A stretch of 63,860 nt of DNA, the filler included, from Chrysochromulina tobinii (Eukaryota), in the NCBI GenBank assembly GCA_001275005.1. It is 6 parts of 6 records of this genome, joined end to end, with 100 filler letters (N's around TTAATTAATTAA, not from the genome) between each part and the next. Parts side by side here need not be neighbours in the genome. Positions count along the whole stretch, not along the records: positions 20,613 to 37,382 come from JWZX01000799.1; 5 more parts are not named here. One strand, given 5' to 3'. The notes under the pieces were generated by a model. The model was not told the DNA's origin. It made no database searches and saw nothing but the letters and a program-made list of their open reading frames with translations. This document shows, in pieces, positions 3,114 through 56,400 of the stretch. Each line of letters begins with the position of its first letter. Position 1 is the stretch's first letter. The position numbers were made by a program, and so were the translations under genes.

Positions 3114-5216
3114 GCCACCACCCGTGAAAGCACCGCTGCTCTCGGCGGCCGCGCCGCCGCTGCTGGCCACCTCTGGTTCCACCCTCCTCCGATGGGCCCG
3201 CGGGCGCAGCGGCGAGGGCACCTGCTTCGCGAGGAGCGCCGACCAGCGGATGTGCTCGAACCACGCGTGGGCGCGCATTGTGGCGGGATCGGCCAGACGC
3301 GAATGCTCGTCGCGCACCAGGAGGCGATCGACGAGCTCGCGCGCGCCAGCCGAGGGCGACGGCGGCGCGCCGTCCTGAGCGCTCTCGTCAGGCTCCGGAA
3401 TCTGGCCCTCGCCGCCGTGATCAGGCGGTGTGGCGCCCGGTACGGCGTCCGTGCCGCCGCCCAGTACGGCGCCCAGCTCGAGCGCGCCTGCGGGCCACGG
3501 CGCTCGCCACGGCGCTCGCTCACCGTGGAGGATTTCGTCGATGAGCCGAGCGTGCGCATGCATGTGCTTTTGGTCGGCGGGGTATGGAGGACGACCAACA
3601 AGGCACTCAAACATGAGCACCCCGTAGGACCACCAGTCCGCCGCCACCGTGTACCCCTTGCCTCGGAGCACCTCGGGGGCGGCCGCGAACGGCGTGCCCA
3701 CGACCGTGTAGGTGCGCCCTCCCGAGGTGAGTCGCTCATCGCGCTTGGCCGCGTTCAGGTCGGCGATCTTGACGTGACCGAGCGCGTCGATGAGCACATT
3801 CTCGGCCTTTATGTCGCGGTGGATCACGCCTGCGTCGTGTAGTGCCTCGATGGCGAGCAGCAGCTCAGCGCATACGAAGCACGCGGCAGGCTCGGGCAGC
3901 CGTCCATACGGCCCCGAGCGGATGTGCAGCCCGAGGTCACCGCCGGCACAGTAGTCCATCACGAGGTACAGGTGCTGGCGGGTCTGGAACGCGCTGTGAA
4001 GCTGGACGACGAACGGATGACACGTCAAGGATTCGTCAAGGATTCGTCAAGGATGCGTCAAGGATTCGTCAACGCAACGCACCTGGACGACGAACGGATG
4101 ACGAATCCTTGACAAGATGTCTCGTTCGGCACGCGCGCCGCGCAGAGCGGTCACGCCGCCCTCGGCAGTGGCCTGCTGCGGCCCGATGCGCACCGCCTTG
4201 AGCGCGACCTGCTGCTTCGTATCGCGGCGCACGGCCTTGATGACTGTACCGAAACCACCGCGGCCGAGAACCTTTCGCTGCTCGAAGAGGGCCGCTCCGA
4301 GGGCCGAGGTGAGCGCTTCGGAGACCTCGGCGGAATGCGACTCGGCGCTCGCGAGATCGAGCGCCGACTTGCCCGAGAAGACGCCCGCGCACGCGGTCAG
4401 CAGCGTGTCGGCGTGCGCGGCGAGTAGCGCTTCGACGACGCTCGCTTGTGCCTTGAGGCACGCCCAATGCAGCGGCGTCACGCCGAATCGGTCGGGCGCA
4501 TCCACGCTGGCGCCGTGGCGCACGAGCGCGCGGACCGCGTCCGCCTGGCCGTAGCCCGCCGCATAGTGCAACGCGGTCCGCCCGACAGAATCGCGGTGGT
4601 CGACGAGCACGGCCGGCGGCCGACGGCGGGAGGGGTGGGCGGCGCGCACGCCATTGCGCTCGCCCGCCGCCGCAGAAGAGGATGGCGCAGCGGCGGAGGG
4701 GGCAGAGGCGGCAGCTGAGGGTGGCAGGGGTAGGGCGCTCGGCTGCAGCGGCGAAGACGAAGAAACTGGCAAGTCGGCAGATGGCGCCGCGAGTGCGAGC
4801 TGCTCGCGCAGTCTGTCCCACTGCTTGAGCCGGGCCAAGTCGACTGGCTGCGCGGCCAGCCAATCCCTCGCTTGGATGGCGGAGGTGGGCGAGGTGGAGA
4901 GCGCGGATGAGTAGAGCCCGATGTCACCGACGTCAGCCAGCTCGCCGTTTCCCGCGAAGTCCGGAAAGATCACCGGGATGTGGATGGAGGGACTCCTGCT
5001 GGGGACTGGACTCCTTCCAGAGCCGCTGCTCTTCGCTGAGTGGGTCGCTTCATTCTCTGAGTCGCTGCTGTTCGACGGACGGATCCCCGAGCCAAACAAG
5101 CTCCACCCGCTCCCGCTCTGCGTCGGTGAGCGACGTTGCGCGGCCGCCACCGTCGCCACAATTGCAGCCATCAAGAATAGATTCGGAGGGGCTCGGCGAG
5201 TTTCGTCGTCGGACAC
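2694..5216 (-). CDS. Ankyrin-repeat AGC-group Ser/Thr protein kinase (2 exons; intron 4002-4082)
   Basis: Ankyrin motifs GRTALHYAA and GVTPLHWAC. Kinase motifs LGRGGFGTV, VALK, HPFVVQ|LHSAFQT, HRDIKAENVL, IADLN (DFG variant), VGTPFAAAPE, DWWSYG. A GT..AG intron joins two same-frame ORFs. Confidence 0.92.
4002..4082 (-). other. 81-nt spliceosomal intron with 20-nt flanking duplication and internal 11-nt repeats
   Basis: GTGCGT...CCAG. CTGGACGACGAACGGATGAC occurs at 4002-4021 and 4083-4102. The intron contains an in-frame stop. Confidence 0.88.
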
Positions 5217-20512: not shown

Positions 20513-20612
20513 NNNNNNNNNNNNNNNNNNNNNNNNNNNNNNNNNNNNNNNNNNNNTTAATTAATTAANNNNNNNNNNNNNNNNNNNNNNNNNNNNNNNN
20601 NNNNNNNNNNNN
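20513..20612. other. Artificial contig-joining spacer (N44-TTAATTAATTAA-N44)
   Basis: 100-nt N run with a six-frame stop linker. Identical spacers recur four more times. Confidence 0.97.
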
Positions 20613-22276: not shown

Positions 22277-23071
22277 AAAATGATTGTGCGAGCACTGTGA
22301 ACATGTGTGGATCGCTGTTTTGGGTTCTGTGAAGATATTTCCTAATTTGGCAGCTGCCTTAAAAGGCGTTTTCAATAGGGTGCTGAAAAATTTACGCAAA
22401 GCGAGCGCGCGCTTCCACAGAGAAGTTCGCCTGAAAACACGCGAGGAGTGCTCGAGAAAATTGCTCGCCATGCTGGCCTTCTTCCAGACATCCGCGGCGC
22501 ACACGAAGGTCTCTCAAGCTCGCAGCTCATGAATAACATCGACGACGCCAAGAGCGCCCTCCGAGTCACCCTCCGAGCCGTCGCCAAGCCCGGACTCGCG
22601 ATCGAGCTGTGACGGCTGGCGCCCTAAGCCACGGCACGACGGCTGCCCATAGGTGCCTGTGCACCGCCTGCGCGCGTACCAGCCCGCCCGCCCGGTCAAT
22701 CTGGCCAAGATGGCGCGCAAGTGCGCACAACAGCGCTGGAGGCTGGCTGCAAACGCGCATCGCCAAGCAGGTGCGTGCTACGCTCGGTGACGCACCTGAG
22801 GGCTGGCTTTGTCACGCACCTCGACGTGTGCTACTGTACAAGGACGCCTTTTCACGTGCTCGAGGCCAGTCGGCGCCGCGTCACGCTCGCCGAGATGACC
22901 TGCGAAGAAAACACCCGCGCTGCAGTCGCGTAAACTACGCAGTAAGCAACGCAGACATATCGATCCTTCAGAGCACGAAAAACGCCACGACCCGCACGAC
23001 CCACGTCCGAGGAGAGCTGTATAAATAGAGTAAACGCTCGCCAGACGAGATGCGCCCACAGATCGCAACAG

Positions 23072-23551
23072 TCACGCAACCTTAATCGCGGCCCACCTTA
23101 TAGTTGGGTCCCTAAATAGTATAGGCGTTCTCTTTAGCTGCCCTTGGTCACTCCAAGTCCAAGTCGCCTCGCACACCTCGCTGAGGGCGCGGCGAAGCTG
23201 CCGATGCAGCCTGGGCGCGCCGAGATGTGCAGCTGCACGGTGAACGCTGCGCGCGCGCTGCGCGTCCCACGCGCCTCGGTCCAGCAGCAGCGAGACTAGC
23301 GCCGCCGCAAACTCGTCGCTTGTGCGCGCGATCGCGATCGCGCCGGGCGAGCGTGCCGTCAGTAGCCCGCGAGCGCCCAGGTGCGGCGTCGTCACGAGCG
23401 GTACCGCATGGCCCAGGGCTAGCATGCATTCGGTCGCGAGGCCTGAAGGCATAAGCACCGGTGCCGCGAGCACACGAGCCTCGAGCATCGCTGGACTCAA
23501 ATCCTCCACTCGTCCGAGCGACTCGACGCCCTCGGCACGTGACTCGCGCAC
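23072..23551 (-). pseudogene. Orphan C-terminal fragment of a GT4/GT-B glycosyltransferase-like gene
   Basis: ARVLAAPVLMPSGLATECMLALGHAVPLVTT..GARGL..IARTSDEFAAALVSLL.D..W resembles the GT4 nucleotide-sugar-binding domain. No in-frame upstream exon found. Confidence 0.55.
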
Positions 23552-23808
23552 CTGATGAGGGGGATAAGGGGCGCTGTGGAGAGCACTTGTATGCAGCTTA
23601 ATGTCCTCGGCACGTGACTCGCGCACCTGCACTCAGAGCCAATCAACGGTGATCCGAGTCAGTGGCCATCAATGGCCATCAGTGAGCTCGCGCACCTCCG
23701 CGCGGTCCTCATCAGATACTCATCAGATACTCATATTGATAGGTCATCAGAGGCCATCAGAGCTCAGAGGTCATCAGAGATCATCAGAGGTCATCAGAGC
23801 TCGCGCAC
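23552..23808 (-). repeat. Stack of three intron-like insertions, each starting at a copy of AG|GTGCGCGAG
   Basis: CTCGCGCACCT occurs four times (~23543, 23618, 23688, 23800). A 25-nt direct repeat lies at 23530-23554 and 23605-23629. Fillers are CTGATGACCT-type and the stack ends in CCCTCATCAG. Confidence 0.75.
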
Positions 23809-23967
23809 CTCCTTAGAGTAGTGAAAGTATGTCCCCCCCTAGAATTTAGAAAAGTGCGCCCGGTGTGCTCGGGCCTGAATACAACCTCGACGACGTCGGA
23901 ACGTATTACCGGAAAAGCAGGGAAAAGTGCGAAAACACCGGTCCCGCGCGCGCGGTCCCCGCACTGG

Positions 23968-25923
23968 TCAAGCATCCATCTCACCTGCTCCTCCTTCCTC
24001 ACCTTCCATGTCAGCCTCGTCCTCGGACGACACGGAGTCTGCTGCTGCAGTGGGCGCAAGGAGCGCCCGGCGCCCAAGCGGAGGCAGTCCACTTGCGGGC
24101 TTCCAGCGCACATACTTACGCAGCGGGGCGCAGTGCATCGCCGGCGCCTCGCGCACGGCTGTCGCCCAATCGCCGCTCGCCGCAAAGCCCGCCAAGATCT
24201 GAAAGACGGCAAGGCAAGTGAGGCTCGTCTTGCGCACACTCACGAGATCGTCCAGCGGCAGCCGCGCCGCGCGCACACCGTGCGCCTCAGCTACGCGCAG
24301 GGCCTCGCCCACCCGATCGGATGTGTTCACGTAGTCGACGAGGCCGCCGATGACGAGCACGTCGGTGGCGCCGATGCTTTGGAGCACCTGCTCCGCATCC
24401 GCGCTGAGGTACACGACGGCGCCCAGCTCGAAGGCGTGCCACGGCGCTTCGGGGATGCGGGCGAGGGTCCATCGATCCCAAGCGTGCGTGGCGAGGGCGG
24501 CGGCGATGGGAGGATGCGTTTCACACCCGAGCCCGCACGCGGCCAGTCGAAAGGGCGCGCGCAGCTGTCGGTTGTACCCGAAGACCTGCGCGAGCTGCTT
24601 CGCGAGCGCCGCGCACTCAGCCTCGTGCATCAGCGCACCAAAGGAGCCTAAGTCGAAGGCAACGGTCGCGCTATGCGCGGCGGCCGCCAGTGCTGCCTCG
24701 CCCTTCCGCTGCCGCCTCGACTGCCTCTGCACCGCACACACGAAGAGTGAGAGGCAGACGCCGCCGCCCGCGATGCCCGAGGGCGCGACGCGGATGCTCA
24801 CGCGCGCAGCAGAGGCCGGCTCTCCTGGCGCCGTCGCGGGCGGCTCTGATGGCGCCGTCGCGGGCGGCTCGGCTGGCGCCGTCGCGGGCGGTTCTGATGG
24901 CGCCGCCGGCGACGGCGCCGGCAAGGGCGCCACCAGCAATGCCGATGCCTCCAGCGACGTCGGCATCGTACCATCGGGCTTAGCGACCGGACGCGTCGCC
25001 GTTACGAGTGGCGCACTTGAGCCCTCCGTCTGGATCTGGTAAAAGGTGGTGATGAGCCCTGGCGATTCGGGCGCATCGCCCTTGCCAAGCGTAGCAGCCA
25101 CACAGCCAGCTCGCTCAAAGGCGCGGATCACCTCGGCGGCGTTGCTAAAGGTGGCCGAGGTGTCGGTTGCTCGGTCGCGGAAAGCCATCAGGCACACGCG
25201 CGGCGGCCCGCATGCCGATGCGCCAGCTACGGCGCTCGAGCTCGGTGGCGAATGCAGCAGCCCGGCAACGGTCGCGACGAAGGGCTCGACGAGGTCACGC
25301 AGCCACACGCACTCGGCCGCCAACACCACCTCGGCTTCCCGAGCGTCGTTAGGGTGCATCTGCTCCTCGAGAGGGCCGAGCCAATTCAGCGCTTGGGCAG
25401 CGATGGAGCCCGTGCCCACCTTGACCGCGCCGCGCCACGCGCGCCCTACGGCCGGTGCCTCCGCCTCCGCCGCTCCGGACGGGTAGGTGCCGTTTTGAGC
25501 GTCCACGCCGGCGCCGGCGTTGGCCTGGACGTTGGCGGCGAGCGTCGTGGACACAACCGCGGGTACATCGGTCACGAGGACGTGAGCTCCGGCCGCCGCG
25601 GCGCACAGGCCAAGCAGACCTATCCCCGAGCCGAGCTCGACGACCCGACGGCCACGCAATGTGCTCGTGAGCCAGCTGTGCGGGCTCGGCTGCCGTAGCA
25701 GCTCGATACAAGCCCAGGAGCCCTCCCACATCAGGCTGCCCGTCGACGCAGCGACCGAGTAGTCCGCGTCAAAGAAGCACGGATCCACCTGGTCCCATTC
25801 TTCCTCAATGTTCCGGCGCTGCACCACCAGACGAACGCCATGCACCGTGGCCGTCACCGCCACCGACGCGCAGCCACCACCGACCTGCACCGCCGTCGGC
25901 GGCGCCGTCAACGTCGACACCAT
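23968..25923 (-). CDS. Fusion: Methyltransf_16 (METTL21-like) domain plus TRM10-type SPOUT tRNA m1G9 methyltransferase
   Basis: STGSLMWEGS, RRVVELGSGIGLLG, VLVTD, LNW, AAECVW. Then VAFDLGSFGALMHEAE..LAKQL...YN, VVYLSADAE, VLVIGGLVD, ARLPL and LT..VFQIL....DW..A. A terminal intron 23839-23984 with stop at 23813 is possible. Confidence 0.88.
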   Translation of the reverse strand: MVSTLTAPPTAVQVGGGCASVAVTATVHGVRLVVQRRNIEEEWDQVDPCFFDADYSVAASTGSLMWEGSWACIELLRQPSPHSWLTSTLRGRRVVELGSGIGLLGLCAAAAGAHVLVTDVPAVVSTTLAANVQANAGAGVDAQNGTYPSGAAEAEAPAVGRAWRGAVKVGTGSIAAQALNWLGPLEEQMHPNDAREAEVVLAAECVWLRDLVEPFVATVAGLLHSPPSSSAVAGASACGPPRVCLMAFRDRATDTSATFSNAAEVIRAFERAGCVAATLGKGDAPESPGLITTFYQIQTEGSSAPLVTATRPVAKPDGTMPTSLEASALLVAPLPAPSPAAPSEPPATAPAEPPATAPSEPPATAPGEPASAARVSIRVAPSGIAGGGVCLSLFVCAVQRQSRRQRKGEAALAAAAHSATVAFDLGSFGALMHEAECAALAKQLAQVFGYNRQLRAPFRLAACGLGCETHPPIAAALATHAWDRWTLARIPEAPWHAFELGAVVYLSADAEQVLQSIGATDVLVIGGLVDYVNTSDRVGEALRVAEAHGVRAARLPLDDLVSVRKTSLTCLAVFQILAGFAASGDWATAVREAPAMHCAPLRKYVRWKPASGLPPLGRRALLAPTAAADSVSSEDEADMEGEEGGAGEMDA

Positions 25924-26107
25924 TTATGCCTCGTGCTCGCGCATTTTTCCAAACGCGGTACTGTACACAGATCACAGCTCTTCTTGAGGCTCTGCAGAGA
26001 AACCTCAGGGACGTGTCACGGCCCGAGCGCCATCAGCGGAGAAGTGAACTCTGTGCTGTGCTGTGGAATGTTACCGGTAAATGGTTGCCGACCGGTAGCA
26101 AAAATCC

Positions 26108-27802
26108 ATGCCGCCTCGTGGAAAGGCGCCCGCGCGTGGCGGTGCCAAATCGCTCTTAGGGGCGGCGGACCTGGCCAAGGCTTCGCCCGCACGCGCCAAG
26201 GCATCGCCCGCACGCGCCAAGGCTTCGCCCGCACGCGCCAAGGCATCGCCCGCACGCGCCAAAGCATCGCCGGCACGCGCCAAGTCTCCTGCGAAGGCCA
26301 AGTCACCGGCTCGCGCACCCCGCTCGTCCCCACCGACGAAGCTGGAGCCGAGCGTTTACGAGACGGAGCTCAAGGGCTGGCAGACGAGCACGGCGCCAGC
26401 GGCGCACAGCGAGTACGAGTTCGGCGGCCCGCTCGGCGCTGTCGCCATCATTATCTTTCTGCCGCTCGTCGTGTACATGCTCTACTTTGGGTGCACCAAA
26501 GCGGATTGCGTCACAAAGTGGAGCGATGCGTACGAGTTGCCGTTGAAGCTGTACGCCGGGCTGACCGGCCCGAACAGCCCTTCGCTGTGGTCGTGGAAGG
26601 CCTTCCTCGCCGTCTTCCTCTGGATCAAGCTGCACTTTATTCTCTACCGCGTGCTCCCGGGCGCAACGGTGCCGGGCGTCAAGCTGGCCGACGGCTCGCA
26701 CCTGAACTATTACATCAACGCGCACCTGGCCTTTTGGCTGTGCGTGGCCGTGTTCGTCGTGCTGCCTGCTGCTGGCCTCTACTACAAAGAGCCCTCCACC
26801 ATCACCCTGTCGCTCGTGTACGACCACTACCTCGAGCTCACCAGCGCGGCTATCGCCTACTCGTTCGCGATGGCCGCGTACTGCTACGCGGCCTCCTTCC
26901 GGCGCGGCGAGCTGCTTGCGGCGGGTGGACAGACCGGCAACGCAGTGTACGACTTCTTCATCGGGCGCGCGCTCAACCCGCGCATCGGCATGCTCGATCT
27001 GAAGGTCGCGTGTGAGTTGCGCCCGGGTCTCATCGGATGGATGCTTCTCAACCTGGGCATGGCGTTCAAGCAGTACGAGCGTGACGGGACCGTCTCGGGC
27101 TCGATGATAGCCGTCAACTTGGGCCAGGCGTACTACGTGTGGGATGCGCTCGCCAATGAGCAAGCGATCCTCACCACCATGGACGTCACCACCGACGGCT
27201 TCGGCTTCATGCTCGCCTTTGGCGACCTCGCGTGGGTGCCCTTCACTTATTCACTGCAGGTGCGCGCCCGCCGCCGCCACCGCCCGCCGCTCGCCCGCAG
27301 CTGCTCGCCCGTAGCTGCCATCATTAACGCAACGCTCACCCCTCGCTCTCCCTCGCTTTCCTCCCAGGCGCGCATCCTCGTCGACCACGACCCGCAGCTG
27401 CCCTGGTGGGCTCTCGTCCTGGTCCTCGCTCTCAACGTCCTCGGGCTCTGCATCTTCCGCGGCGCCAACTCAGAGAAGGATGCCTTTCGGCGCAACCCGA
27501 ACGCCCCCGAGGTGGCGCACCTGCAGTTCCTTCCGACCAAGCGCGGCACGCGCTTGCTCACTTCCGGCTGGTGGGGCATGGCGCGCAAGATCAACTACAC
27601 GGGCGACTGGCTCATGGGCCTCTCATGGTGCCTGACCTGCGGAGGCGCCTCGCCCGTCGCCTATTTTTACGCCATCTATTTCGCAGTGCTCCTGATCCAC
27701 CGCGCGGTGCGCGATGACCACTTCTGCTCTGTCAAGTACGGTGCAGACTGGGAGACGTACAAGCAGAAGGTGCCCGCTGTCTTCGTGCCGGGCATCATCT
27801 GA
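26108..27802 (+). CDS. ERG24: Delta(14)-sterol reductase (ERG24/LBR/TM7SF2 family); in-frame intron 27260-27367
   Basis: YEFGGPLG, YDFFIGRALNPR, DLK..ELRPGLIGW, TTMDVTTDGFGFMLAFGDLAWVPFTYSLQ|ARIL, IFRGANSEK and SGWWGMARKINYTGD motifs. Confidence 0.95.
   Translation: MPPRGKAPARGGAKSLLGAADLAKASPARAKASPARAKASPARAKASPARAKASPARAKSPAKAKSPARAPRSSPPTKLEPSVYETELKGWQTSTAPAAHSEYEFGGPLGAVAIIIFLPLVVYMLYFGCTKADCVTKWSDAYELPLKLYAGLTGPNSPSLWSWKAFLAVFLWIKLHFILYRVLPGATVPGVKLADGSHLNYYINAHLAFWLCVAVFVVLPAAGLYYKEPSTITLSLVYDHYLELTSAAIAYSFAMAAYCYAASFRRGELLAAGGQTGNAVYDFFIGRALNPRIGMLDLKVACELRPGLIGWMLLNLGMAFKQYERDGTVSGSMIAVNLGQAYYVWDALANEQAILTTMDVTTDGFGFMLAFGDLAWVPFTYSLQVRARRRHRPPLARSCSPVAAIINATLTPRSPSLSSQARILVDHDPQLPWWALVLVLALNVLGLCIFRGANSEKDAFRRNPNAPEVAHLQFLPTKRGTRLLTSGWWGMARKINYTGDWLMGLSWCLTCGGASPVAYFYAIYFAVLLIHRAVRDDHFCSVKYGADWETYKQKVPAVFVPGII
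26172..26320 (+). repeat. 21-nt tandem repeat encoding (AKASPAR)n
   Basis: GCCAAGGC(T/A)TCGCCCGCACGC, about 5 copies plus degenerate AKSPA units. Confidence 0.9.
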
Positions 27803-28073
27803 GCGTACGTAAGCATGCACAGGGAGGGATCTCAATTGGATCTCCAGCTCTCTCGCACGAAAGACTCGTTGCGCTGTCGGAGCGCGCGAGACGAAGGAAA
27901 TGCCGTGAAGGACGGAAGAGGGAGAGAGAGAGAGAGAGAGAGGAGCACTTATTCTTATTTGGCTTTTGGGTACGTGTTGTGAAGATAGCCTGCTCCCATG
28001 TGCTCCCACTTCAAGAGAGGAACTTACTGTGGAACGCTCATTCACACTCCTGGTCGAACGGTTTCCAGCGCGG

Positions 28074-31000
28074 ATGGAAGCCTTCCGCGCCGCCATCAAA
28101 GCGGCGGTGACGGCCAATGGCGGCGAGCCACACCATGCAATTCGGCATGAGCTGCGCGGGAGGCAGCCGTGGGTCGGTGACGGCTGGGTGGATGGTGACC
28201 TCGAGCTTCTTGCGCTCGCCATGTCCATCCGGCCGTGCCAACCCGACGAGGTCATCATCACATCGGCCGAGCGTGGCGATTGGTTTGGCGTCGTCCTCTC
28301 CGGCTCGCTCGCCGTCGAGAAGAAGGGCGCGCAGCTCGCCGTGCTCGGCCTGGGCGACGTTGTCGGCGAGATGGCGGCGCTGCACCCAGCAGCCGAGCGG
28401 TGCGCTACCGTGCGAGTGCGGGGGGCGAGTCCGAGCCGTCTCGCAACGATGACGACGAAGCAGCTGCAGAACTTTGTGCGCGACTGGCCGGGCCTTGGCA
28501 CGCGGCTCTTGCGCACGCTGGGGCGCATCGCAGCCGTGCGCCAGCTCGAGAATGGAAGGAGCGACCTATGCGCCTTGGTGCCGAGGAGCATAGAGTGGTC
28601 GATGACCGTGCCTGACCCTTCGACGGAGAAGTTCGATCGCTTCGACCTGCACGAGGCGTACCGCGCGCGGCTGGCGACGCACCTCTGCCGGCAGCTGGAG
28701 GTGGCGCCGGCGAGCGCGGGCCGCTTCGATGACGCCGAGCTCTCACTGCTCGTCGACCGCGCGCAGTTCCAGCCATTCCGCTCGGGACAGCGCCTCGTCG
28801 GCGAAGGCGAGCACATCGACAGCGTGATGGTGCTCCTTCTCGGCTCCGCCTCCTTCGAGCGCTGGTCCGTCGAGGTGGGCGAGGGCGGCGTCCTTGGCGC
28901 CCATGAGTTCTTCGGAGTGCCGTCGCTGAGCGCCGCCTCGGCGGTTGTGGCCAAAGGGGACGGTGTGCTCGCAGGCTGGACAACCCTGCATTTAACCGAA
29001 CTGATGGCGCATGACGGTCCGCTGATGATGCCGCTGATGACCTCGGATGACCTCTGATGACCTCTGATGGCGCACGACGGTCCGCTGATGGCCTCTGATG
29101 ATCCTCTGATGACCTCTGATGATCCTTGATGACCTCTGATGATGATGACCTCTGATGATCCCTGATGAACCGTCCAAAGAGTTCCCTCGGATGGCCTTTG
29201 ACGAACCTCTGATGGCCACTGATGAACCTCTGATGACCTCACTCATCAGGCCCGCTCGCGTACAAGCTCATCCAGTTCATCGGCCGCTTCGCGATGGGCA
29301 TCGGCGCGACCCTCTGCCACGTCCTCCGCGAAGACGCTGTGCATGCAAACACCATGCCGCAGCGCGAGTTCCGTGCGGGGGTTGGAGGCTCGCATAAGCG
29401 TGCTGGTGGCGTGCGATACGTGGTCATTGGCGGCAGCGGCAGCAACGGCGGCGGCAGCGGCAGCAGCAGCGGCGGCAGCGGCGGCAGCAGCGGCAGCGGC
29501 GGCAGCGGCGGCGGCGGCGGCGGCGGCGGCGGCAGTTCGGCAGCGGCCGAGGCTGTGTACATAGAGAAGATGCAGCAGCAGGCGGAGCGGCTACGTGCCC
29601 AGCTGAGCGAGAATGAGCGGCTGTCCGCCGCGCTGCAGGTGAGTGTCGTTAATTGCCTCTGATTGCCATTGATTACCACTGATTGCCACTGATTGCCACT
29701 GATTGCCAGCTGAGCGCGAGTGAGCGGCTGTCCGCCGCGCTGCAGGAGAAGACCCACGCGTCCGCGCGCTATCGGCTGCAGGTGAGTGTCGTTAATTGCC
29801 TCTGATTGCCACTGATTGCCACTGATTGCGTCCGCGCGCTATCGGCTGCAGGTGAGTGTCGTTAATTGCCTCTGATTGCCATTGATTGCCACTGATTGCC
29901 ACTGATTGCGTCCGCGCGCTATCGGCTGCAGTACGCCGCCGCAGCCAAGCGGCTCGAGCAGCGCGACGTTGACAATCGACGGCTACAGACCGAGCTGGAA
30001 GCGGCGTACACGCAGCTCGAGCAGCAGCGGGGCGCGAGCTCGGAGGCGCATGCCATCCTCGAAGAGCTCGCGGGTGTGGTTACGGCCGTGCTGGACGATC
30101 TGCCCAATCTGGATCACGAGATCCGTTCGCCCAACACGGCGCCCAATCTGGAGCACGAGGTCGGCCCGATCGGGTCGCCCGACACGGCGCCCGCGTACGG
30201 CTCCGCACCTTCGGATCTCGGCGAGGGCGAGGGCGCGCTCACGACGGCGCGCACCCCCAGGCAGCTGGCGCCCACGACGGCGCTCCCGAGCCTGCGCGCC
30301 GCCCTGAGCGCCGCCCTGCTCTCCGCGGTGCGCCTGCTGAGGGAGCACGCGCTCACGACGGCGCTCACGAGCACGCCCACGACGGCGCTCGAGCGGCCGC
30401 ACCCCAACTCGCCCGTCGGGTCCGCGCGCCAAGCGGCGCTCTCGCCGCCCAAGACGGCGCTCTCGCCGCCCAAGACGGCGCTCTCGTCGCTTGGGTGCAG
30501 CTCGGCCGGGGAGGCGCCCAAGACGGCGCCCAGCCTCCACAGCAGGCGCGGTTTCGCCAGCCGTGCCGCGTCCCTCGCCCACGACGGCGCGTGCGAGCCC
30601 GGGGCACCGGGCGCCCAAGACGGCGCCAGCGCGTGCAGCGCGACCGCGATGCTCGCAGACGCAACCGGCGGCGCTCGAGACGGCGCGAGCGCCGTCGTGA
30701 GCACCACCGACGCGCAGCCGGCCGCCCCGCCGGTGCACCACGCGAAGAGCGGCGCGGCGGCGCCCTCTCAGAACAGGGGGGCAACGGGCACGACGGGGAC
30801 GACGGGCGCCGCCGCGGGCGCGCCAGGCGCCGCCGCGGGCGCGCCTGCCACGCGCGAGTCCGTGTGCGAGATTGGCGTGCAGGCGGGCGGCTACCGCGTG
30901 CCTTACCCGAGCGTGGCTGCAGCGCCCCTGAGCGGCGAGGAGACGACACGCCCTCTGAGCCGCGCGTCTGCGCTGGTGCGTCGGGCGCACTCGAGCACGC

Positions 31001-32199
31001 AGACGAGCACGCTTGGAGTCGGCACCGCGCGCAGCCGTCTAGAAACCTTTGCCGCCCAGACGCAGACGGAAGAGAGCTTCCTCGACGGGATGGCGGTGAC
31101 GCGCCCGCCTCGCATGGCGGCGGGGGTGTACGGCGCACCCCACCCGAGCGCCGTCCTGAGCGACGCGGCCACTGCAGAGGTGATCCTCGAGGCCCTCGAT
31201 GCCGCTCGGTACGGCGCTCCTGCACGGCACGAGTTCGTGTGTAACGGCTCGTCGGCCGTGACGCAGAAGCAGACGCCCGTACCGTCCACTCAGCCATCGA
31301 CTCGGCCTTCGACGGCCGCCTCACGCCCTTCACGCCCATCCACAGCGGGTGGCGGACGCGTCTACCCCTCGTCCTTGAGCGCCGGCGTGGCCGCCTCGAC
31401 CATGTACGCGGCGCTGCCACGGAGCACCTCCTCACCCACTTGCCGGCCGGCCTCGGCGACGCCGACCAGCATGGCCTCGGCGACGCCGACCAGCATGGCC
31501 TCGGCGCAGTCGAGCACGACCAGTACGGCCGGGCCGCTCGCCATAGCCGTGGCCATCACAGCAGCGGGCGGCGCCGGTGCTCGCCACGGCGCCGGCGCTC
31601 GCCCCTCTTCCGCACTGGAAGGCTCGTTACGCTCCAAGGGGAAGCTCCCTGAGCGCCGTCCTGAGCGAGGCTCCCTCAGCTCGCCCAGCGCCGTGGCGAG
31701 CACCGGCGCCGTGTCGAGCACCGGCGCCGTGGCGAGCACCGGCTCCCTTGGCTCGCTCAGCGCGTCCCAGTTCCAAAAGGCACGTTTCCACGGGCCGCTG
31801 CCTATGGTGCGCCTCGTTCAGGGCTTCAGCCAGAGCGGCACCCCTCATCGGCTGCACAGCATCGAGTCCGAGGCCGACCTCGAGCGGCAGCTGCAGCAGC
31901 TGGGCCTGCCGCCCTCGACCCGCTGGGTGCCCAATCCGGCGCCCAACCCGACGCCCAAGACGGCGCTCGGGCCCAGCCCGTGCAGCAGCGCCCTCACCTC
32001 GTGCCACGCGTCGCGCCCGGGCTCGGCGCACGCGCCGTGCTGGGCACCGGGCTGCCACGCGTCGCGCCCGGGCTCGGCGTTGCCCGCCTCGGGCAGCGCC
32101 GGCTCGGCCGTTGGCTCGGCCGTTGGCTCCTCGTCCCGCGCCGGCTCAGCCTCGCACGTCCGCACGGAGCTGCCCGGCTCTATAGAAGGGGAAGAGTAG
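28074..32199 (+). CDS. Protein with two cyclic-nucleotide-binding-like domains, a coiled coil and a low-complexity tail; introns 29017-29249, 29639-29745, 29782-29931
   Basis: ERGDWFGVVLSGSLAV..LGLGDVVGEMAAL..RCATV and a second repeat LVGEGEHIDSVMVLLLGS..GGVLGAHEF. Three ORFs are joined in frame by GT..AG introns. Confidence 0.8.
29017..29249 (+). other. 233-nt phase-1 intron made of CTGATGACCT-type repeats
   Basis: G|GTCCGCTGATG...ACTCATCAG|GCCCGCT restores DG-PLAYKLIQF. Confidence 0.75.
29639..29931 (+). other. Three near-identical introns (29639-29745, 29782-29851, 29852-29931) around a 36-nt exon
   Basis: Each starts GTGAGTGTCGTTAATTGCCTCTGATTGCCA, continues with (CTGATTGCCA)n and ends in a copy of the preceding exon's 3' end. 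All are phase 0. Confidence 0.88.
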
Positions 32200-32487
32200 C
32201 TACTAGTGCCTCGAACCAGCAGGTTTCCCACATCCCAGGCGTTCCGTCGAATTGCCGGCGGCGCCGAGCCGAGACGAGAGTTAGAGATCTCGACGGTGCG
32301 ACCGCCGACCGCATTAAAACATTTCAACATAGTTTCATAGTTTCATATTACGTACACTGCGTCTCGGGACTCACGCCGCGGGGGCCGCGAGCTCCGGTCG
32401 GCTTTTCAGGACCTCCCAGAGCTCCTCCCGCGTGCCGCCCCGAAAGGAAAGCGGCCGCCGGCGCGCCGCCTGGCCGCTCCTCCGAGC

Positions 32488-33360
32488 TCAAAAATTGTCC
32501 TTCATGCGGCGCAGCCTTGCAAACGTCTGCTCCTCCGTCTCGTGGTCCGGCACGCCCACATGTGCTCGCAACGCTGGGCTCGCGGGGCGGAGGAACGGGT
32601 TCGTGGCAATCTCATACCCGATCGTCGACGGCACGGTCGGCTTTCCAACGGCACGCAGCTCGGTGATCTCGCGCGCGCGCGCCTGCAGCGCCTCGTTCTG
32701 CGGCTCGACACTGAGGGCGAAGCGCAGATTGGACGCGGTGTACTCGTGAGCACAGTACACGGCCGTTTCCGGCGGGAGCGCCGCCAAACGCTGCAGCGAC
32801 GCCCACGCTTGCTCGGGAGTTCCCTCGAAGAGGCGGCCGCAGCCGAGAGCGAAGAGCGCGTCACCCACGAAGGCAACTTGCAGCGAGGGCACGTGATACG
32901 CCACGTGGCCGAGCGTGTGCCCCCCAACGTCGAGGACGTGCACCTCGTGCTCGCCAAACTGGAAGCAGTCGCCACCGCTCACTGGCCGCTCGATGGACGG
33001 GATCTTGTGGGCTTCCGCTGCCGGCCCGATGATCTCGCACCCATACAGCTGCTTCAGTTCCACATTGCCGCCCGCGTGGTCGGCATGATGGTGCGTGTTG
33101 AAAATGTGCGTCAGCTTCCAGCCGCGCCGCGCGCACGCGGCAGCAATCGGGGCGACCTCCGGCGTATCGATTGCGGCTGTACACCCCGTTGCGCTGTCGT
33201 GGAGTAAGTACCCGTAGTTATCGGTCAGGCACCCAAACTGCTCCACCTCTAGCGTGCTGACTGAAGCACCGGCCGTCAGGCTGCGGGAGCGCCCAGCCGA
33301 CGCGGCCACAATGGCCGCGGCGCTGGCCGCCCGGCCGATGAGCGCGAATGCACGCGCCAT
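32488..33360 (-). CDS. gloB: Hydroxyacylglutathione hydrolase (glyoxalase II), probably organelle-targeted
   Basis: DNYGYLL, THHHADHAGGN, GHTLGH, FVGDALFALGCGRLFEG, YCAHEYT and E.ATNPFLR motifs. Confidence 0.96.
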   Translation of the reverse strand: MARAFALIGRAASAAAIVAASAGRSRSLTAGASVSTLEVEQFGCLTDNYGYLLHDSATGCTAAIDTPEVAPIAAACARRGWKLTHIFNTHHHADHAGGNVELKQLYGCEIIGPAAEAHKIPSIERPVSGGDCFQFGEHEVHVLDVGGHTLGHVAYHVPSLQVAFVGDALFALGCGRLFEGTPEQAWASLQRLAALPPETAVYCAHEYTASNLRFALSVEPQNEALQARAREITELRAVGKPTVPSTIGYEIATNPFLRPASPALRAHVGVPDHETEEQTFARLRRMKDNF

Positions 33361-33906
33361 GTTTAGTTCACGAGACAGCTGTATTCATACTCACACCTTC
33401 CGCTTTTGAAGGCTGCCGAAGCGTGCTTCGACCGGGGAGCGTCGAAATGAAAGTCAACATCTCACGAAACTCTTGCGAAATGTGTGACCGTGCCCCATTT
33501 CACGTAAGTGGCGCGTGGGCACTCGCACTCGCCACCTCCCGCGTCGCCCGGGCGGTGCAAGCAAAGCAAGCAAGGGCGGTGCGGGCTCCGGCTCTGATTA
33601 TCAGCCCCCCGCGCCCCGCGCGGCGCGGGTGTGAATCTTTATTTACAAGTCGATAAGACGAGACTTGCGGGTCCACATGAGACCACGAACGTCTGAAAAG
33701 CATGGCCACAGCGCGCACAGCCGACACAGCGTCACCCCAACGCAAGGGCGAAGGGGTTGCACAGACCCCACAAATAGTATGGGGGGTGGGCGTTCCCGTC
33801 CTTGTCCGACCGCCTCTCGTTCTCTTAACGTTCTCTCCATTGCTCGCAGCAGCCCAGAGTGCGGCGACAGACTCTCTTGTGAGTTGAGTCTCTCACGCAG
33901 CCTTTC

Positions 33907-35948
33907 TCACATCTCGGCCACTTTGAGGTCCTGTGCGAGCATCTTGGCCGCGATGGGGTGGTAGTTCGATCGGTGCTCGAGAAAGGTTTGGACGGCGAGC
34001 TCGCGCTGCGCCTCCCAGCCGTAGAGCGCGCGGTAGAGCGGGCGCACGAACTTCATGCGCCCTTGCTCCGTGACGAAACCAAGCACCTGTGGAATGATGA
34101 ACTCGGCGCGAGAGAGGATGCAGATGCGCTGCCAGCGCAAGCGCACCTCGGCATTCTTGGAGGCACTGAGCTCATACAGCCGATCCATCTTCTCGAGCGC
34201 GCGGAGCGCCAGCGGCGCCCCTTTGCCCTCGAGCGCGCGCGCGAGCAGCGTCTCCCAAAAGAAGATGCGCAGCTGGCTCGGCCACCCCTTGTACTCGGCC
34301 GCGGAGGCGTCGAGTGACAAGTCGTCCGCGGCGAGCTCTGCCATCCAACGGTCAGCGAGCACGGTGCACGTCGCCCCAAGGGAGGGGTCGAGGACCGGCG
34401 TCACCGGCGGCATACCCGGTGTTTTGAACCACGCGTCCCAGTCGACTGAGCTCGCGTCGATCTCGCGCCCTTCACACCACTTGAGGAAGCATTCACGGAA
34501 GTCGGCGGACGTGAGCGTGCGCCGCTTGAACGTGCCGATGTAGTGCGCGGCGAACTGCTCAAAGATGGGGCGTCCGCCCACGATGGCGCTCAGGTGGCAG
34601 AGGAGCGAGAGGCCCTTTTCGTACGGCACCGCGCTGAACGAGTCATCTGGATCGATGCCATCCAGCGGCGGGATGAGCCGGGTGAGCGGGTTGGTCGGCC
34701 CGAAGGTGGCGACATCGTCGGCGAGGTGCGTGAGCGCCTGCTGCACCTGGAAGTCGAAGAAGGCGTCGCACCGCTCGGCGGGCTCGAGGTGTGCGAGCGT
34801 ACTCGTCTCGAGCCACCGCGTCCACCCTTCGTTGAGCCAAAAGTGCTCCCACGTCAGGTTCGTCACCAGGTTGCCCGTCCAGGAATGCGCGACCTCGTGG
34901 CAGATGACATTGGCCAGCGAGCGGTCGCCCGCGAGCAGCGTGGGCGTCGCAAAGGTGAGGCACGGGTTCTCCATGCCGCCGTACGGGAAGCTCGGCGGCA
35001 TGCAGAGGATGTCGTACCTGTGAACAGAGCACCGAGCACAGAGGGACCTGTGAAGAGGGACCTGTGAAGAGGGACGCTGTGAAGAGGAAGCTGTGAAGTT
35101 TCGAGGGAGATGGGTGGCTCGGCGCGTCCTGCGCGCAGATGAGAGGGTCGGCTGCGGAGGGCGCACCGCCCCCACGCGTACGGCGTCTGCGTGAGCTCCT
35201 CCGCCTTGGCCACGAAGCGCTCGGCTTCTGCGAACTCCCAAGCGGCGGCCTCGACGACACTCGGCTCAGCCCAAACGGTCGTGCGCGAGCCTACGTTGAT
35301 GCCACGCACGTCGCCGACGGCGAGGGCGAGTAGGTACGACGAGAGCGGGCACGTCTGCTCGAAGGTGAAGGTGCGCAGCGGAACGCCGCCCACGACGCTG
35401 GCGACCGGCGAGCCCACGGCCACCGCGCTCATCAGGGCCGTGGCCCACTCCGGCACCCGGACCGTGGCGTCGTACGTAAACTTGGCGGCCGGCCCGTCAG
35501 GGCACGGGAGCATGGAGCGCGCGTGGATGGCCTGGCACTGGCTGAACATGAACGGCCTCTCCTTGCCCGCGGTCTGGGCGGGCGGCAGCCACTGCAGTGC
35601 CGACGACTTGGGCGAGGTGGCGTAGGTGACGGCGACCTCGAGTGCTCGGCCCTGCTCCCCGAGCCCCTCGGGCAGCGTGATGGCGCACGCGACACCGAAT
35701 GCAGCATGTGCTGGCCTCATCGTGTGCGGCGCGGGTGCGCCGCACACGGTCACGGAGCGCACCTCAAGCTCGGACGAGGTGTCCAGGACGAGCTCAGCCA
35801 CCCGGTGCTCAGCGACGTCCACAGTCCAGGTGGCGACGCCTTCGAGGACATGGCGCTCAAAATCGACTGACAGGCTGAGGTTGAGGTGCTTGTAGACGAA
35901 GGACGCGTGGTTCGAGAGCGACGACTTATCGATGCGACAGTCGGCCAT
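33907..35948 (-). CDS. LTA4H: Leukotriene A4 hydrolase-like M1 aminopeptidase; intron 35018-35166
   Basis: ALQWL.P.QTAGK..PFMFSQCQAIHARS, YAWGR|YDIL, PPSFPYGGMENP, HEVAHSWTGNLVTN..W.HFWLNEG, VPYEKG and QGRMKFVRPLY motifs. Confidence 0.95.
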
Positions 35949-36083
35949 TCTTCACAAATGGCGAACGCAATCAGCGATGCGGAACATCCTCGCCACGCAG
36001 CGCCTGAATAGGCGTGCGAGGGTCGGGAAGTGGCCCCCACGAACCCCCCCTCGTGGCCGTTACGCTTCCTCCTCCTTCGAAAC

Positions 36084-36265
36084 ATGCGTGTCTCGACAGC
36101 CTCGACGATGGCCGCGACGGCGGGCGGCCTCGCTGGCCTCTGCCTTCTCCGCTGCCGCCGCGCTGCGTCAACGTTCAGAGCCGGCGGCGGCGTCGCGTTC
36201 GAGACCCTCGACGTATTCACCACGCGCCGTTTCGGTGGCAACCCGCTTGCCATCGTACCCGAGTC
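36084..36265 (+). pseudogene. 5' portion of a PhzF-family epimerase/isomerase gene, interrupted by a repeat array
   Basis: Transit-peptide-like leader, then FETLDVFTTRRFGGNPLAIVP matching the PhzF N-terminal DVFT..F.GNPLAV motif. Homology stops where the array begins. This could be exon 1 of an intact gene. Confidence 0.7.
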
Positions 36266-53488: not shown

Positions 53489-56400
53489 ATGATCAATGAT
53501 CAGCTGCGCCGGACGATTGCGCCGGGCTCGCAAGCGCAGGAGCTCTGCTACGAGTCATGCTCGTCCACGAGCTCCGCTCCTGACGACGACGTGGCCGCTG
53601 CCTTCGGAGGCCGCGGCGGCAGCGGCCGATGGTCGCCCTTCACTGCAGGCAGCACGGCAGCCATGCCAAGCTCGCCATTTCTTGCCTCGCCAGACGGTAA
53701 CTCGTCCTCGTGCGGCGGGAGTGCTGTGGCGCTCACGCCCGAGCTGCGACCGGCCGAGGCTCCCGTCGCGCTCGAAGACTGGTCACCGACGAGTGGCGAC
53801 ATACTTGCACCGAGTGCAACCGTAGAGGCTGCTGCTGCGCAGGCAGCAGAGACAGCGGTGCTGATCTCGCCACCGGCAGTTGGACAGGCTCGGCAGCCCG
53901 CCTCGTCAGCGCTGACTGCACGCCAACTGCTCTTGGCGATGGACGCGGATGGCGCCGCACCAGCGGCCTCGGAGGATGCGGCGCTGGCCGGGGCGGCGCT
54001 GGCCATGGCGGCTGAGGCGCTTCCTTTTGGCTCGACTGCGATCCCGCTTTGCCCTGTGGGTGACGAGCCGCGTATGCGTGCTCAGCTGAGCCGCTGCCGC
54101 GCGCAGCTCCAAGCGGCACAGGTGCAGCTGCAGCTGGCGACCTCGCAACTGGGCGCTACGAGTGAACGGCTAGAGTGCTGCGAGAGGGAGCATGCAACGC
54201 TCACACATAAGGTGGCCGAGCTCGAGACGGTTCAGCGGGCGCTCGGAGTCACCGAGGGCTCCACCGAGGAGGCCGACGGCCACGGCGTGCTCGGCGGCGC
54301 CGTCGCGGGCGCCCGAGCGGCCCGTGTGATCCCTTCTCTCGATGCCCTGCGAGGGGCTGTGGGGCGCCTCGCCGACGAGCGGATCGAGGCGCTCGAGACG
54401 GCGCTCAGCACCAAGGACGCGCAGCTGCACGAGCTGCAGGCGCTCGCGTGGGGCGCGTATGCCGACGACAGCGCCGTCGCGGCCGAGGTGCAGCGGTTAC
54501 ACATCTGATGACATCTGATTACACATCTGATGACATCTGACATCTGATGATATCTGATTGCCTCCCTCATCAGGTGCAGCGGTTACACGACGAGTTGGCG
54601 CATGCATCCTCCAAGCATCGACAGCTCACGGCGCACGCACAGGCGGCAGAAGCCACGTTCGCTGAGAGGGTTCGCAACTCTCATGCCGAGCAGGAGGAGC
54701 TCCGCGCGAGCATCGCCGCCCTAACGGCTCAGCTCCGCTCCCAGCAGGCGTCGGAGGCGTCTCTGCGTGCGGCGTACGAGGACGTGAAGGCATCAGCAAG
54801 TGCGAGCGCGGCGGAGGCGGCGAGGCTGGCTACGGTCGAGGCAAGGTTACTCGCCACGCTAACGGATCGGGAGCAACAGCTGCACGTGGCCATCGCACAG
54901 CTCGAAACCCACGCCGCCGAGATCGATGCCTTACGGCGCGGCTCGTCCGCCCATCAGCTCTCCGCGCGCTATGATGAGCAGATCGAGATGCTCCAACGGC
55001 AGGTAAGCGAGCAGGCCGCGCGGGATGCGCAGGCGCTGTATCAGGCGCAGGCGGCCGTTGAGGCGGCGAGGGCGGAGGCGCGTGAGGCACACGAGCGCGC
55101 CCGCCGCAGCCGCGAGCTCGCGGAGTGCCTCGAGATCGAGCAGGCGGCCCATTCACAGACCAGGGCGCAGGCGGCCGAGCGGTTGGCGGCGATGGCCGAG
55201 CGCGAGCGGGCGTTGCTCAAGGAGCTCTCCACTGTCCAGAAGCAGCAGCAGCAGCAGCAGCAGCAGATTCAGCAGCAGCAGCAGCAGATCAAGCAGCAGC
55301 TCAACGCTGCGCCCAACTCGCCTGCTGTCCACACAGCCGGCGGTTGCGCATGGATCGAGGACAGCACGATGAGCGCCTTCCCCAACCCAGTCACCGCGTC
55401 GCCGCCCTCGCCCCCCACCGCGAACGCCGACAGCGGCAGCGCCGGCAGCGATGGGCTCGAGCCGGAAGGGGACGCTGCATCGGGGGGTCTCCCCGTCGTT
55501 TCTTCGCCGCCAGCCCAGGGACTCGTCCTTCCTAATATGGGACTCGTCCTGCCCGAGTCGCTCGTCGCGTCGTCGTGGTCACCGCCCTCGGCTTCGTCAA
55601 CCTCCTCGGCACGCTCGACGCACTCTTTGCGCTCCACGCGCGCCATGCCGATGTCGCCCTTGCCGCTCGCGCCGCCGCCGCGCGGCCTCGAGGCCATGCT
55701 GCAGTCGGCTCAACGTGAGATCGAGGGGCTGCACGACGTGGTGCGTCAGCAGATGCACGTTCAGGGCGTCCTCGAGAACGAGCGCGCGGCCGTGCTCGAG
55801 CGTGAGCAACGGGCGGTCAGCGAGCACGTCGCGCTGCTCGCGCACACCGAGAGGCTAGAGACCTTGCTTGACGACGCTCGCCAGACGGCGACCCGAGCGC
55901 GTTCGCAAGCGGCGCAGGAGGTCGAGGCACGTGCGGCCGTTGAGGCGCAGCTCTCGGAGGCCAAGGCGCGCACAGCGCAGCTCGAGGCCAAGCACGCGCA
56001 GCTCGAGGCGAGCGCCGCCATGCAGCTCGAGACGGCCGTTCGGCAGCTGACCGACACGGTGGCCGCTCATCTCACGGAGATCTCGATGATGCGAGAGGTG
56101 GCCGAGCGCGAGAAGGCTGAGCTCAAGAGCGAGCTCAAGGCGCAGCATGCAATCGCGCTCAAGGCCGCCGAGGAGCGGCTGCACAACGCGCCGCCGCCGC
56201 GCCAGCCGCCTCAGCCGCATCACGACGCGCTGCTCGGCGAGGTGCCCAGCACGGCGCTCGAGACGGCGCTCCATAATAGGCAGGAGGTGCCCAGTGCGGC
56301 GCCGCCCCTCGGCGAGGCGCTTCGTCAAACCTCGGAGCTGTGGGGACAGCCGAGCGCAGAGGCGGCGGCGGCGGTGGGCGCGGCGATGGGCGCGGCGGTG

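What the first reader, a model, noticed from the sequence alone, without database searches (positions are those of the whole stretch)
29599..29931. Three sibling introns within 300 nt, two abutting with a zero-length exon
Seen: an identical 30-nt 5' end (GTGAGTGTCGTTAATTGCCTCTGATTGCCA) occurs at 29639, 29782 and 29852. Each intron ends with a copy of its own upstream exon (~40 nt with 2 mismatches for the first, GCGTCCGCGCGCTATCGGCTGCAG for the others). The last two join as CAG|GT, a recursive-splicing-like site. The first two have different duplicated flanks, so they are separate insertions of one donor sequence 36 nt apart. This is the strongest local evidence that the intron sequence is being copied to new sites.
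Basis: seen in the sequence. Interest (0 to 1): 0.8.

Follow-up and report, generated by a model that had tools for sequence, protein, structure and literature searches.

The report
Introns copying themselves into new sites
In a single-celled alga, three short look-alike inserts in one gene, predicted to be introns, each sit between two copies of the gene's own coding sequence and belong to a family found at about 35 unrelated places, some present in one allele and absent in another; they likely arise when DNA repair copies part of an existing intron into a new site, which would be a way of gaining introns without a transposon.

Summary
Removing all three inserts restores a 1,211-codon frame that matches uninterrupted relatives. 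The host is a haptophyte.

The shared 5' end is not local: a 19-mer marks about 35 unrelated target sites. At 26 clean sites the insert is the 5' part of a sibling intron between two copies of 15-42 nt of exon, with microhomology at the joint (2.5 nt versus 0.6 by chance). Empty alleles exist, some copies carry pieces of their parent's flank, and mirror-image inserts supply the acceptor instead.

Allelic proteins order this locus as none, then intron 1, then introns 2/3. The abutting pair is a same-site stack, seen at 10 of 35 sites; recursive splicing is untested.

Best reading (0.5): microhomology-guided template switching during repair, filtered by selection. Rivals: reverse transcription (0.2), a Replitron-like HUH element (0.2). 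No inverted termini, fixed duplication length or A-tail. This scan noted the mirror form earlier in the same genome (e1-2577349).

The parts
28074..32199 (+). Host gene: cyclic-nucleotide-binding domain protein with a coiled-coil-like and low-complexity C-terminal part; 1,211 codons after removing four predicted introns
   Evidence: Frame test; Pfam cNMP_binding; uninterrupted relatives P0154, P0142, P0141
29017..29249 (+). Upstream predicted intron of the mirror type (donor from a short exon duplication, acceptor carried by the insert), decamer array inside
   Evidence: Only donor among four tested in 29005-29030 that opens the frame, and it gives the junction peptide of P0142/P0154; corrects the GC donor at 28975 that I first favoured
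29599..29638 (+). Exon end duplicated by insert 1 (40 nt, ends CAG)
29639..29745 (+). Insert 1, predicted intron, phase 0: 67-nt copied core (GT donor plus array of branch-point-like decamers) and 40-nt exon copy supplying the acceptor; the oldest of the three
   Evidence: 2 mismatches between copies, one in each by comparison with P0146
29707..29709 (+). Alternative CAG acceptor inside insert 1; its use would leave a 71-nt intron and an in-frame 12-residue repeat
   Evidence: use untested
29746..29781 (+). 36-nt exon (12 codons); its last 24 nt are the stretch duplicated by inserts 2 and 3
   Evidence: Same peptide in uninterrupted relatives
29782..29851 (+). Insert 2: 46-nt core plus perfect 24-nt exon copy
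29852..29931 (+). Insert 3: 56-nt core plus perfect 24-nt exon copy; its first 58 nt equal the first 58 nt of insert 1 with one mismatch
4002..4082 (-). Unrelated-sequence insert with the same anatomy (own GT, 20-nt exon copy at its 3' end) splitting a protein kinase domain
   Evidence: Pkinase profile positions 1-64 and 55-263 lie on either side
23552..23808 (-). Stack of three abutting mirror-type units, each starting at the same duplicated AG|GT word
54488..54573 (+). Mirror-type insert: 17-nt duplication supplies the donor, the insert supplies the acceptor

Best explanation
The three inserts are predicted spliceosomal introns that likely arose when repair or replication synthesis left the exon, copied part of an existing intron and re-entered the exon 24-40 bases upstream, leaving a duplicated exon end that would serve as the new acceptor. 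SHOWN: duplication-core-duplication anatomy at 26 clean sites; single-copy empty alleles; short homology at both joints; parent-derived extra bases in some copies; clustering; mirror forms; copies in both orientations. INFERRED: the template is the continuous donor locus (DNA, or its unspliced transcript) rather than an excised intron; the machinery is the host's own end-joining or template-switching polymerase at a staggered break; selection keeps the outcomes that splice out cleanly or keep the frame. At this locus: intron 1 came first; synthesis paused at the next exon's end, jumped to intron 1's donor by a shared 7-nt word, copied 58 nt, and returned on a 2-nt match, giving insert 3; insert 2 is a second round at the same site or a re-duplication between the 24-nt repeats. 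The decamer array likely makes these introns good donors because any fragment carries branch-point-like words.
For: (1) 91 stretches in metagenome contigs hold the 19-mer; 36 site keys, 35 after merging one allele pair. (2) 26 of 36 keys are clean (10 dropped: 6 weak or short duplications, 4 flagged as inside a stack or beside an array); duplication 15-42 nt, median 23.5; core 32-140 nt. (3) Core-to-duplication microhomology averages 2.46 nt against 0.64 +/- 0.20 (largest of 2,000 null draws 1.58). (4) The base after the site is G in 17 of 23 and GT in 12 of 23, against 23% and 5% for CAG background; the 6 sites without G share 7.0 nt of upstream exon with another family site against 5.3 (p about 0.01). 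(5) Neighbour pairs share words across the donor's splice site: 7 nt here (chance 0.009), 5 nt in L051, 7 nt into the exon for a mirror pair in L024. (6) Empty alleles: L016/L051 (this family), L020/L010, L025/L021, L006/L077, L031/L009, L045/L029. (7) Parent-derived bases: L051 to L060 (11 nt), L004 to L076 (13 nt), L001 to L038 (9 nt exact), and in L017 a copy that runs 24 nt into the donor's next exon. (8) At least 10 of 35 sites have another family site within 3.2 kb. (9) 5 of 36 keys lack AG before the insert. (10) Mirror (30), same-type (28) and both-sites-from-duplication (4) forms with many different ends among 109 filtered inserts. (11) In L044 a 1,015-codon open frame holds 10 copies of a second intron family's core, 9 antisense and 1 sense, with no stop. 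(12) Templated insertions by repeated microhomology priming are a described footprint of polymerase theta (PMC9962433, passages).
Against: The templated insertions described in the passages I read are 3-10 nt and copied from the flanks, not 30-140 nt from other genes. Donors are always intron-family sequence, even in non-splicing contexts, which hints at a preferred mobile core rather than random templates. 10 of 26 joints show no measurable microhomology. Over all 20 CAG sites the sharing of upstream exon words is not significant (p 0.07-0.08); only the post-hoc non-G subset is. The microhomology null is approximate because extending a duplication absorbs chance matches. The L017 exon-carrying copy lies in a repetitive gene and may be gene conversion. 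P0146 could be a partly spliced transcript rather than a genomic allele. 47 of the 109 mined inserts were left unclassified and include mis-parsed duplicates. No repair gene was examined.
Confidence: 0.5

Rival explanations
1. Target-primed reverse transcription: a retroelement's enzyme nicks the exon, the free end primes on intron RNA (excised, circular or still in pre-mRNA) by a few matching bases, and the staggered second nick makes the long variable duplication.
For: Variable 15-42 nt duplication, 3' microhomology and a variable repeat tail resemble non-LTR insertions (own knowledge; data). All 36 keys start at the donor GT (by construction of the search). Either orientation is allowed. 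A circular intron would also present acceptor joined to donor and could give stacks (intron circles: PMC10996645, listing only). The two introner surveys include non-LTR-derived families (PMC12130899, passages).
Against: No A-tail (longest A run 1-2 in 26 of 26), no fixed 3' end, no RNA fold above shuffles (z 0.64 to -0.76). Strong clustering near donors and one copy carrying the donor's next exon do not fit an excised intron. No reverse transcriptase among 72 window frames, which covers only 64 kb.
Confidence: 0.2
2. A non-autonomous copy-and-paste element moved by an HUH endonuclease of Replitron or Helitron type: precise left end placed just after AG, fuzzy right end carrying the parent's flank, variable duplication.
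For: Replitron-1 of Chlamydomonas reinhardtii inserts right after RG, carries variable parent-derived sequence at its right end and makes variable-length duplications; one Replitron protein was recovered from Chrysochromulina tobinii (PMC10288648, passages and section 9). Here 31 of 36 keys follow AG and several copies carry parent flank. The second family has a short recurring core bounded by palindromic words.
Against: No terminal direct repeat (0 of 26) and no hairpin (stems 2-5 bp) at the right end. 5 of 36 keys are not after RG. Mirror-type inserts have the fixed end on the other side, and at least 15 different left ends occur among 28 same-type inserts, so many families would be needed. 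AG preference is also what selection for an acceptor gives.
Confidence: 0.2
3. Local slippage or assembly duplication only: the three copies are a local tandem expansion and the third may not exist.
For: The window has 156 tandem-repeat rows; stack copy number differs between assemblies; inserts 2 and 3 could be two alleles joined by an assembler; no reads were seen.
Against: The family stands at about 35 unrelated sites with their own duplications; L030 has the same triple; inserts 2 and 3 differ by a decamer that 3 shares with 1. This rival can still hold for the third copy alone (my estimate 0.1-0.15).
Confidence: 0.03
4. A classical introner: a miniature DNA transposon moved by a DDE transposase.
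For: Carries one splice site and takes the other from the duplication, as in described introners, including a Chrysochromulina sp. family.
Against: No terminal inverted repeat (0-1 nt in 26 of 26); duplication 15-42 nt and variable, against 3-9 nt and fixed per family; element length not conserved (32-140 nt).
Confidence: 0.03

Closest known systems
[quoted passage not shown]
   Same: Haptophyte host; sequence-similar introns at unrelated sites; donor carried, acceptor recruited; no inverted termini; about 70 nt.
   Different: That family has a 4-nt duplication; described duplications are 3-9 nt. Here 15-42 nt, variable, with junction microhomology, variable element length, parent-flank carry-over and mirror forms. 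That survey removed low-complexity families, and its successor lists 0 families for Chrysochromulina tobinii (PMC12130899, supplement row); whether the window is that species is not established.
Intron gain by repair of staggered double-strand breaks in Daphnia pulex (PMC4202315, passages)
   Same: [quoted passage not shown]
   Different: Daphnia repeats are 4-12 nt, and the passages I read name no intron donors; here the repeat is 15-42 nt and the filler is traceably a piece of another intron.
Replitron-1 / Replitron-N1 of Chlamydomonas reinhardtii (PMC10288648)
   Same: Precise left end after RG, fuzzy right end with parent flank, variable duplication, copy-and-paste.
   Different: Replitrons are 0.9-3.6 kb with terminal direct repeats and a right-end hairpin and are not reported there as making introns; these inserts are 30-140 nt, lack both features and occur in mirror form.
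Intron gain by tandem genomic duplication of an AGGT-bearing exon segment, and intron transposition (review PMC3443670, passages; Oikopleura reverse-splicing proposal in PMC4122922, passages)
   Same: An exon duplication supplies one or both splice sites; new introns resemble older ones.
   Different: Here both happen in one event: a duplication with a copied intron fragment between the copies. Reverse splicing would give whole introns, sense only, without duplication; antisense in-frame copies exist.
Polymerase-theta templated insertions (PMC9962433, passages)
   Same: Microhomology priming, repeated re-alignment, direct-repeat insertions.
   Different: Described as 3-10 nt from the immediate flanks; not linked to intron families in what I read.

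Membership tests
Introner (broad sense: repeated sequence that creates introns at new sites) | Similar introns at many non-homologous gene positions | tested here: met
   About 35 target sites share the 19-mer, 7 the exact 30-mer
Introner (broad sense: repeated sequence that creates introns at new sites) | Recent gain shown by empty sites | tested here: met
   L016 versus L051; uninterrupted proteins P0154, P0142, P0141 and partly interrupted P0146
Introner (broad sense: repeated sequence that creates introns at new sites) | Spliced out of the transcript | tested here: inconclusive
   Removal restores the frame and the relatives' peptide; no RNA reads were seen
Introner (broad sense: repeated sequence that creates introns at new sites) | End-to-end similarity of a defined element | tested here: not met
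   Only the 5' 19-30 nt are shared; cores run 32-140 nt and end at varying points
MITE-type introner (DDE DNA transposon) | Terminal inverted repeats | tested here: not met
   0-1 nt in 26 of 26 cores
MITE-type introner (DDE DNA transposon) | Short duplication of fixed length (3-9 nt) | tested here: not met
   15-42 nt; literature range
SINE / non-LTR retroposed copy | Variable-length duplication with 3' microhomology | tested here: met
   the feature list is from my own knowledge
SINE / non-LTR retroposed copy | Fixed 3' end or A-rich tail; structured RNA head | tested here: not met
   A runs of 1-2; fold z-scores 0.64 to -0.76
SINE / non-LTR retroposed copy | Partner reverse transcriptase in the genome | not testable with these tools
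   No genome held; none among 72 window frames
Replitron (HUH copy-and-paste) | Left end immediately after RG; fuzzy right end from parent flank; variable duplication | tested here: inconclusive
   31 of 36 after AG, 5 not; parent flank in 3-4 copies; selection for an acceptor predicts the same AG bias
Replitron (HUH copy-and-paste) | Short terminal direct repeats and right-end hairpin | tested here: not met
   0 of 26; stems 2-5 bp
Replitron (HUH copy-and-paste) | Cognate Rep transposase with matching ends | not testable with these tools
   No genome held
Recursive splice site (zero-length exon) | Acceptor directly followed by donor (YAG|GT) | tested here: met
   CAG|GT at 29851/29852
Recursive splice site (zero-length exon) | Splicing intermediate joining the upstream exon to the internal GT | not tested

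The most novel reading that the evidence does not exclude
This alga gains introns by a self-seeding process that needs no transposon: ordinary introns rich in branch-point repeats act as templates that host repair copies into duplicated exon ends, each new intron becoming a donor, so that parent-to-daughter chains can be read from the sequence, and the same process also writes intron fragments into proteins and builds stacks of abutting introns that must be spliced recursively or as one.
Probability: 0.4. Interest if true: 0.85.

Novelty: new variant of a known kind. Interest (0 to 1): 0.66.

Why it matters
How new spliceosomal introns arise is a long-standing question, and most recent gains have no identified source. 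Here the source, the target and the empty allele can all be seen, with short-range and cross-gene parent-daughter links. The footprint joins three mechanisms usually treated apart (break repair, exon duplication, intron copying). Such families would be missed by introner surveys that filter low-complexity repeats, so this route may be undercounted. Segregating presence/absence alleles make template type, rate and enzyme directly testable. The stacks offer a compact natural test of recursive splicing in 60-80 nt units.

Tried and rejected
No whole genome is held for this window, so no genome-wide count; raw reads and RNA reads could not be obtained, so copy number and splicing stay open. Two viral-contig scans found nothing. 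I first read the upstream intron as GC-AG from 28975 (donors tested only to 29010); relatives' proteins moved it to GT at 29017. A first automatic catalogue (432 groups) was too noisy and was filtered to 109. The first polymorphism listing was cut from view and redone with stricter filters; many of its 52 rows are mis-pairings of satellite arrays, and I count only 6 locus pairs read by eye. mis-parsed one stack (L010); one search gives the corrected counts. Overall upstream-word sharing was not significant. Prefix identity did not single out the neighbours as closest relatives. Candidate antisense inserts turned out to be sense or self-templated; 156 of 162 adjacent arrays share a strand, and of the 6 exceptions only the L044 cluster held up. 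RNA folding gave nothing above shuffles. Look-ups of earlier findings by sequence and by seven words were empty. Not in print as far as searched: ten full-text searches gave no description of 15-45 nt duplication-flanked satellite introns in haptophytes; the library lacks most subscription papers, I did not read the Chrysochromulina nuclear genome papers, the 2022 supplement was cut when stored, two files of the 2025 supplement were not searched, and bioRxiv supplements are closed.

Full report
OBSERVATION. The 30-mer stands at 29639, 29782 and 29852 only, with none expected by chance. Insert 1 is 107 nt and ends in a 40-nt copy of the preceding exon with two mismatches. Inserts 2 and 3 are 70 and 80 nt and each end in a perfect 24-nt copy of the 36-nt exon's end. 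Each core is a GT donor followed by 3-5 decamers holding a branch-point-like word (the likeness to the YTRAY consensus is from my own knowledge). The window is a chain of contigs joined by N runs; the locus lies in the piece 20613-37382.

GENE AND HOST. Leaving any insert in closes the frame; removing all three opens it. With one more intron at 29017-29249 the gene gives 1,211 codons and carries a cyclic-nucleotide-binding domain. A neighbouring gene's nearest named relatives are Haptolina ericina (74%) and Prymnesium parvum (64%), so the host is a haptophyte. The genus Chrysochromulina is my inference; no call names the species.

ORDER OF EVENTS AT THIS LOCUS. Public proteins show three states. 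P0154 (1,109 aa, contig up to 5,979 nt) and P0142 read through all four intron positions, and P0141 through the three of the finding. P0146 starts inside insert 1's decamers and reads straight through the position of inserts 2/3. P0162 starts inside insert 1 and stops inside insert 2. The order none, 1, then 2/3 follows, with the caveat that these records could be transcripts. Insert 3 equals the first 58 nt of insert 1 with one mismatch, and the two target exons end in the same 7 nt (chance 0.009 for two CAG sites). L030 repeats the triple.

THE FAMILY. One scan of metagenome contigs gave 91 stretches with the 19-mer: 127 hits in 38 upstream contexts including the window, about 35 distinct targets. 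At the 26 clean sites the anatomy is constant: exon end, copied core starting at GT, second copy of the exon end. The duplication is 15-42 nt and the core 32-140 nt. Ten keys were left out (six weak duplications, four flagged as inside a stack or beside an array). There are no inverted termini, no A-tail and no stable fold. L016 lacks the second of two members that L051 has 166 nt apart, and shows a single copy of the duplicated word, so the duplication is made on insertion.

JUNCTIONS. Where the core meets the second exon copy, the exon matches the core's expected continuation by 2.46 nt on average against 0.64; 10 of 26 show none. On the other side the target continues with G in 17 of 23 and GT in 12 of 23 cases (background 23% and 5%); several of these are existing intron donors, read by eye. 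The six targets without G share longer exon ends with another member (7.0 versus 5.3 nt, p about 0.01, a post-hoc subset), although the same test over all CAG sites is not significant. Five of 36 keys have no AG before the insert, so AG is not required for entry.

GENEALOGY AND CLUSTERING. Some cores carry bases that belong to another site's duplicated exon before switching to their own: L051 to L060, L004 to L076, L001 to L038. In L017 a copy continues 24 nt into its presumed donor's next exon. At least 10 of 35 sites have another member within 3.2 kb, all in the same orientation; with tens of members in a genome of roughly 60 Mb (size inferred from the relatives listed) about one in a hundred would. 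Copying is thus both local and between genes.

WIDER PROCESS. A filtered survey of the fetched DNA gave 109 duplication-flanked inserts: 28 of this type, 30 mirror-image (donor from the duplication, acceptor carried), 4 with both sites from the duplication, 47 unclassified. Ends are many. Five more empty/filled pairs concern these forms. The window itself has such inserts at 4002-4082, 23552-23808, 29017-29249, 46868-46953 and 54488-54573. In L044 a second family's core sits ten times, nine antisense, inside a 1,015-codon open frame; the footprint therefore does not depend on orientation or on making an intron.

THE STACK. Ten of 35 sites have abutting units, and four differ in unit number between assemblies (1 to 4). 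In some stacks the units re-enter the exon at different points (L029, L010), which suggests repeated rounds rather than plain doubling. Removing inserts 2 and 3 as one 150-nt intron or in either order gives the same mRNA, so the zero-length exon needs no function. Recursive splicing is neither shown nor excluded. Insert 1 also has an inner CAG whose use would add 12 residues in frame.

MECHANISM. I commit to microhomology-guided template switching by host repair or replication synthesis at a staggered break, with a continuous donor template and selection for clean splicing (0.5). Reverse transcription primed at the target (0.2) explains the variable duplication and the precise GT but not the clustering or exon carry-over. 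A Replitron-like HUH element (0.2) matches the one-sided signature well but lacks its terminal features and does not explain mirror forms. No mobilising enzyme lies among 72 long frames of the window, which says little about the genome.

COMPARISON AND NOVELTY. It works like an introner but fails the tests for MITE-type introners and for a defined element. It is closest to repair-associated intron gain in Daphnia, with longer repeats and an identified intron donor. The 2022 survey excluded low-complexity families, and the 2025 dataset lists none for Chrysochromulina tobinii. Papers seen: passages of 10.1101/2022.06.06.494994, PMC9860276, PMC12130899, PMC8469720, PMC4202315, PMC3443670, PMC4122922, PMC9962433; parts 1-2 of 4 of 10.1101/2020.10.14.339549; part 1 of 5 of PMC11282704; passages and section 9 of PMC10288648; supplement rows of PMC9860276 and PMC12130899; listing only for PMC10996645. 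Verdict: real, a new variant of a known kind, interest 0.66.

Noticed in passing
L044:11900-12990 (also L033:3400-3560): A second intron family's ~25-nt core occurs ten times (nine antisense, one sense) inside a 1,015-codon open frame, several copies flanked by duplications that keep the frame; intron-family DNA appears to be written into a protein. The core is bounded by two palindromic hexamers.
   Followed up: partly
window 23552-23808 (-): Three abutting mirror-type units with different fillers, just downstream of the stop of a methyltransferase-like gene; a second zero-length-exon stack in the same contig.
   Followed up: partly
window 46868-46953 (-): 63-nt insert with a 23-nt duplication whose filler stops one base short of the usual acceptor AG and offers no splice pair.
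   Followed up: partly
window 4002-4082 (-): 81-nt insert with an 11-mer array and 20-nt duplication splits a protein kinase domain; same anatomy, unrelated filler.
   Followed up: partly
P0155 (relative of window 28074-29260): In a lineage lacking the 29017 intron, the frame breaks a few codons further on in satellite-like residues, suggesting an independent insertion close to the same site.
   Followed up: no
L014 minus strand, offset about 1549: A family-like core starts with GA instead of GT, directly in front of an existing donor.
   Followed up: no
L065 versus L038: Polymorphic 122-nt insertion with an 8-nt duplication and no decamer array; looks like a different kind of element.
   Followed up: no
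L010 2003(+) and about 6300(-): Two mirror-type introns on opposite strands 4.3 kb apart share 52 identical bases; one is absent in L020.
   Followed up: partly
window N runs (20513-20612 and four more): The window is six contigs joined by N spacers with a 12-nt stop linker; coordinates across them are not genomic distances.
   Followed up: yes
window 36306-36670: 56-nt tandem array of 6.5 copies that has one more unit in L030.
   Followed up: no
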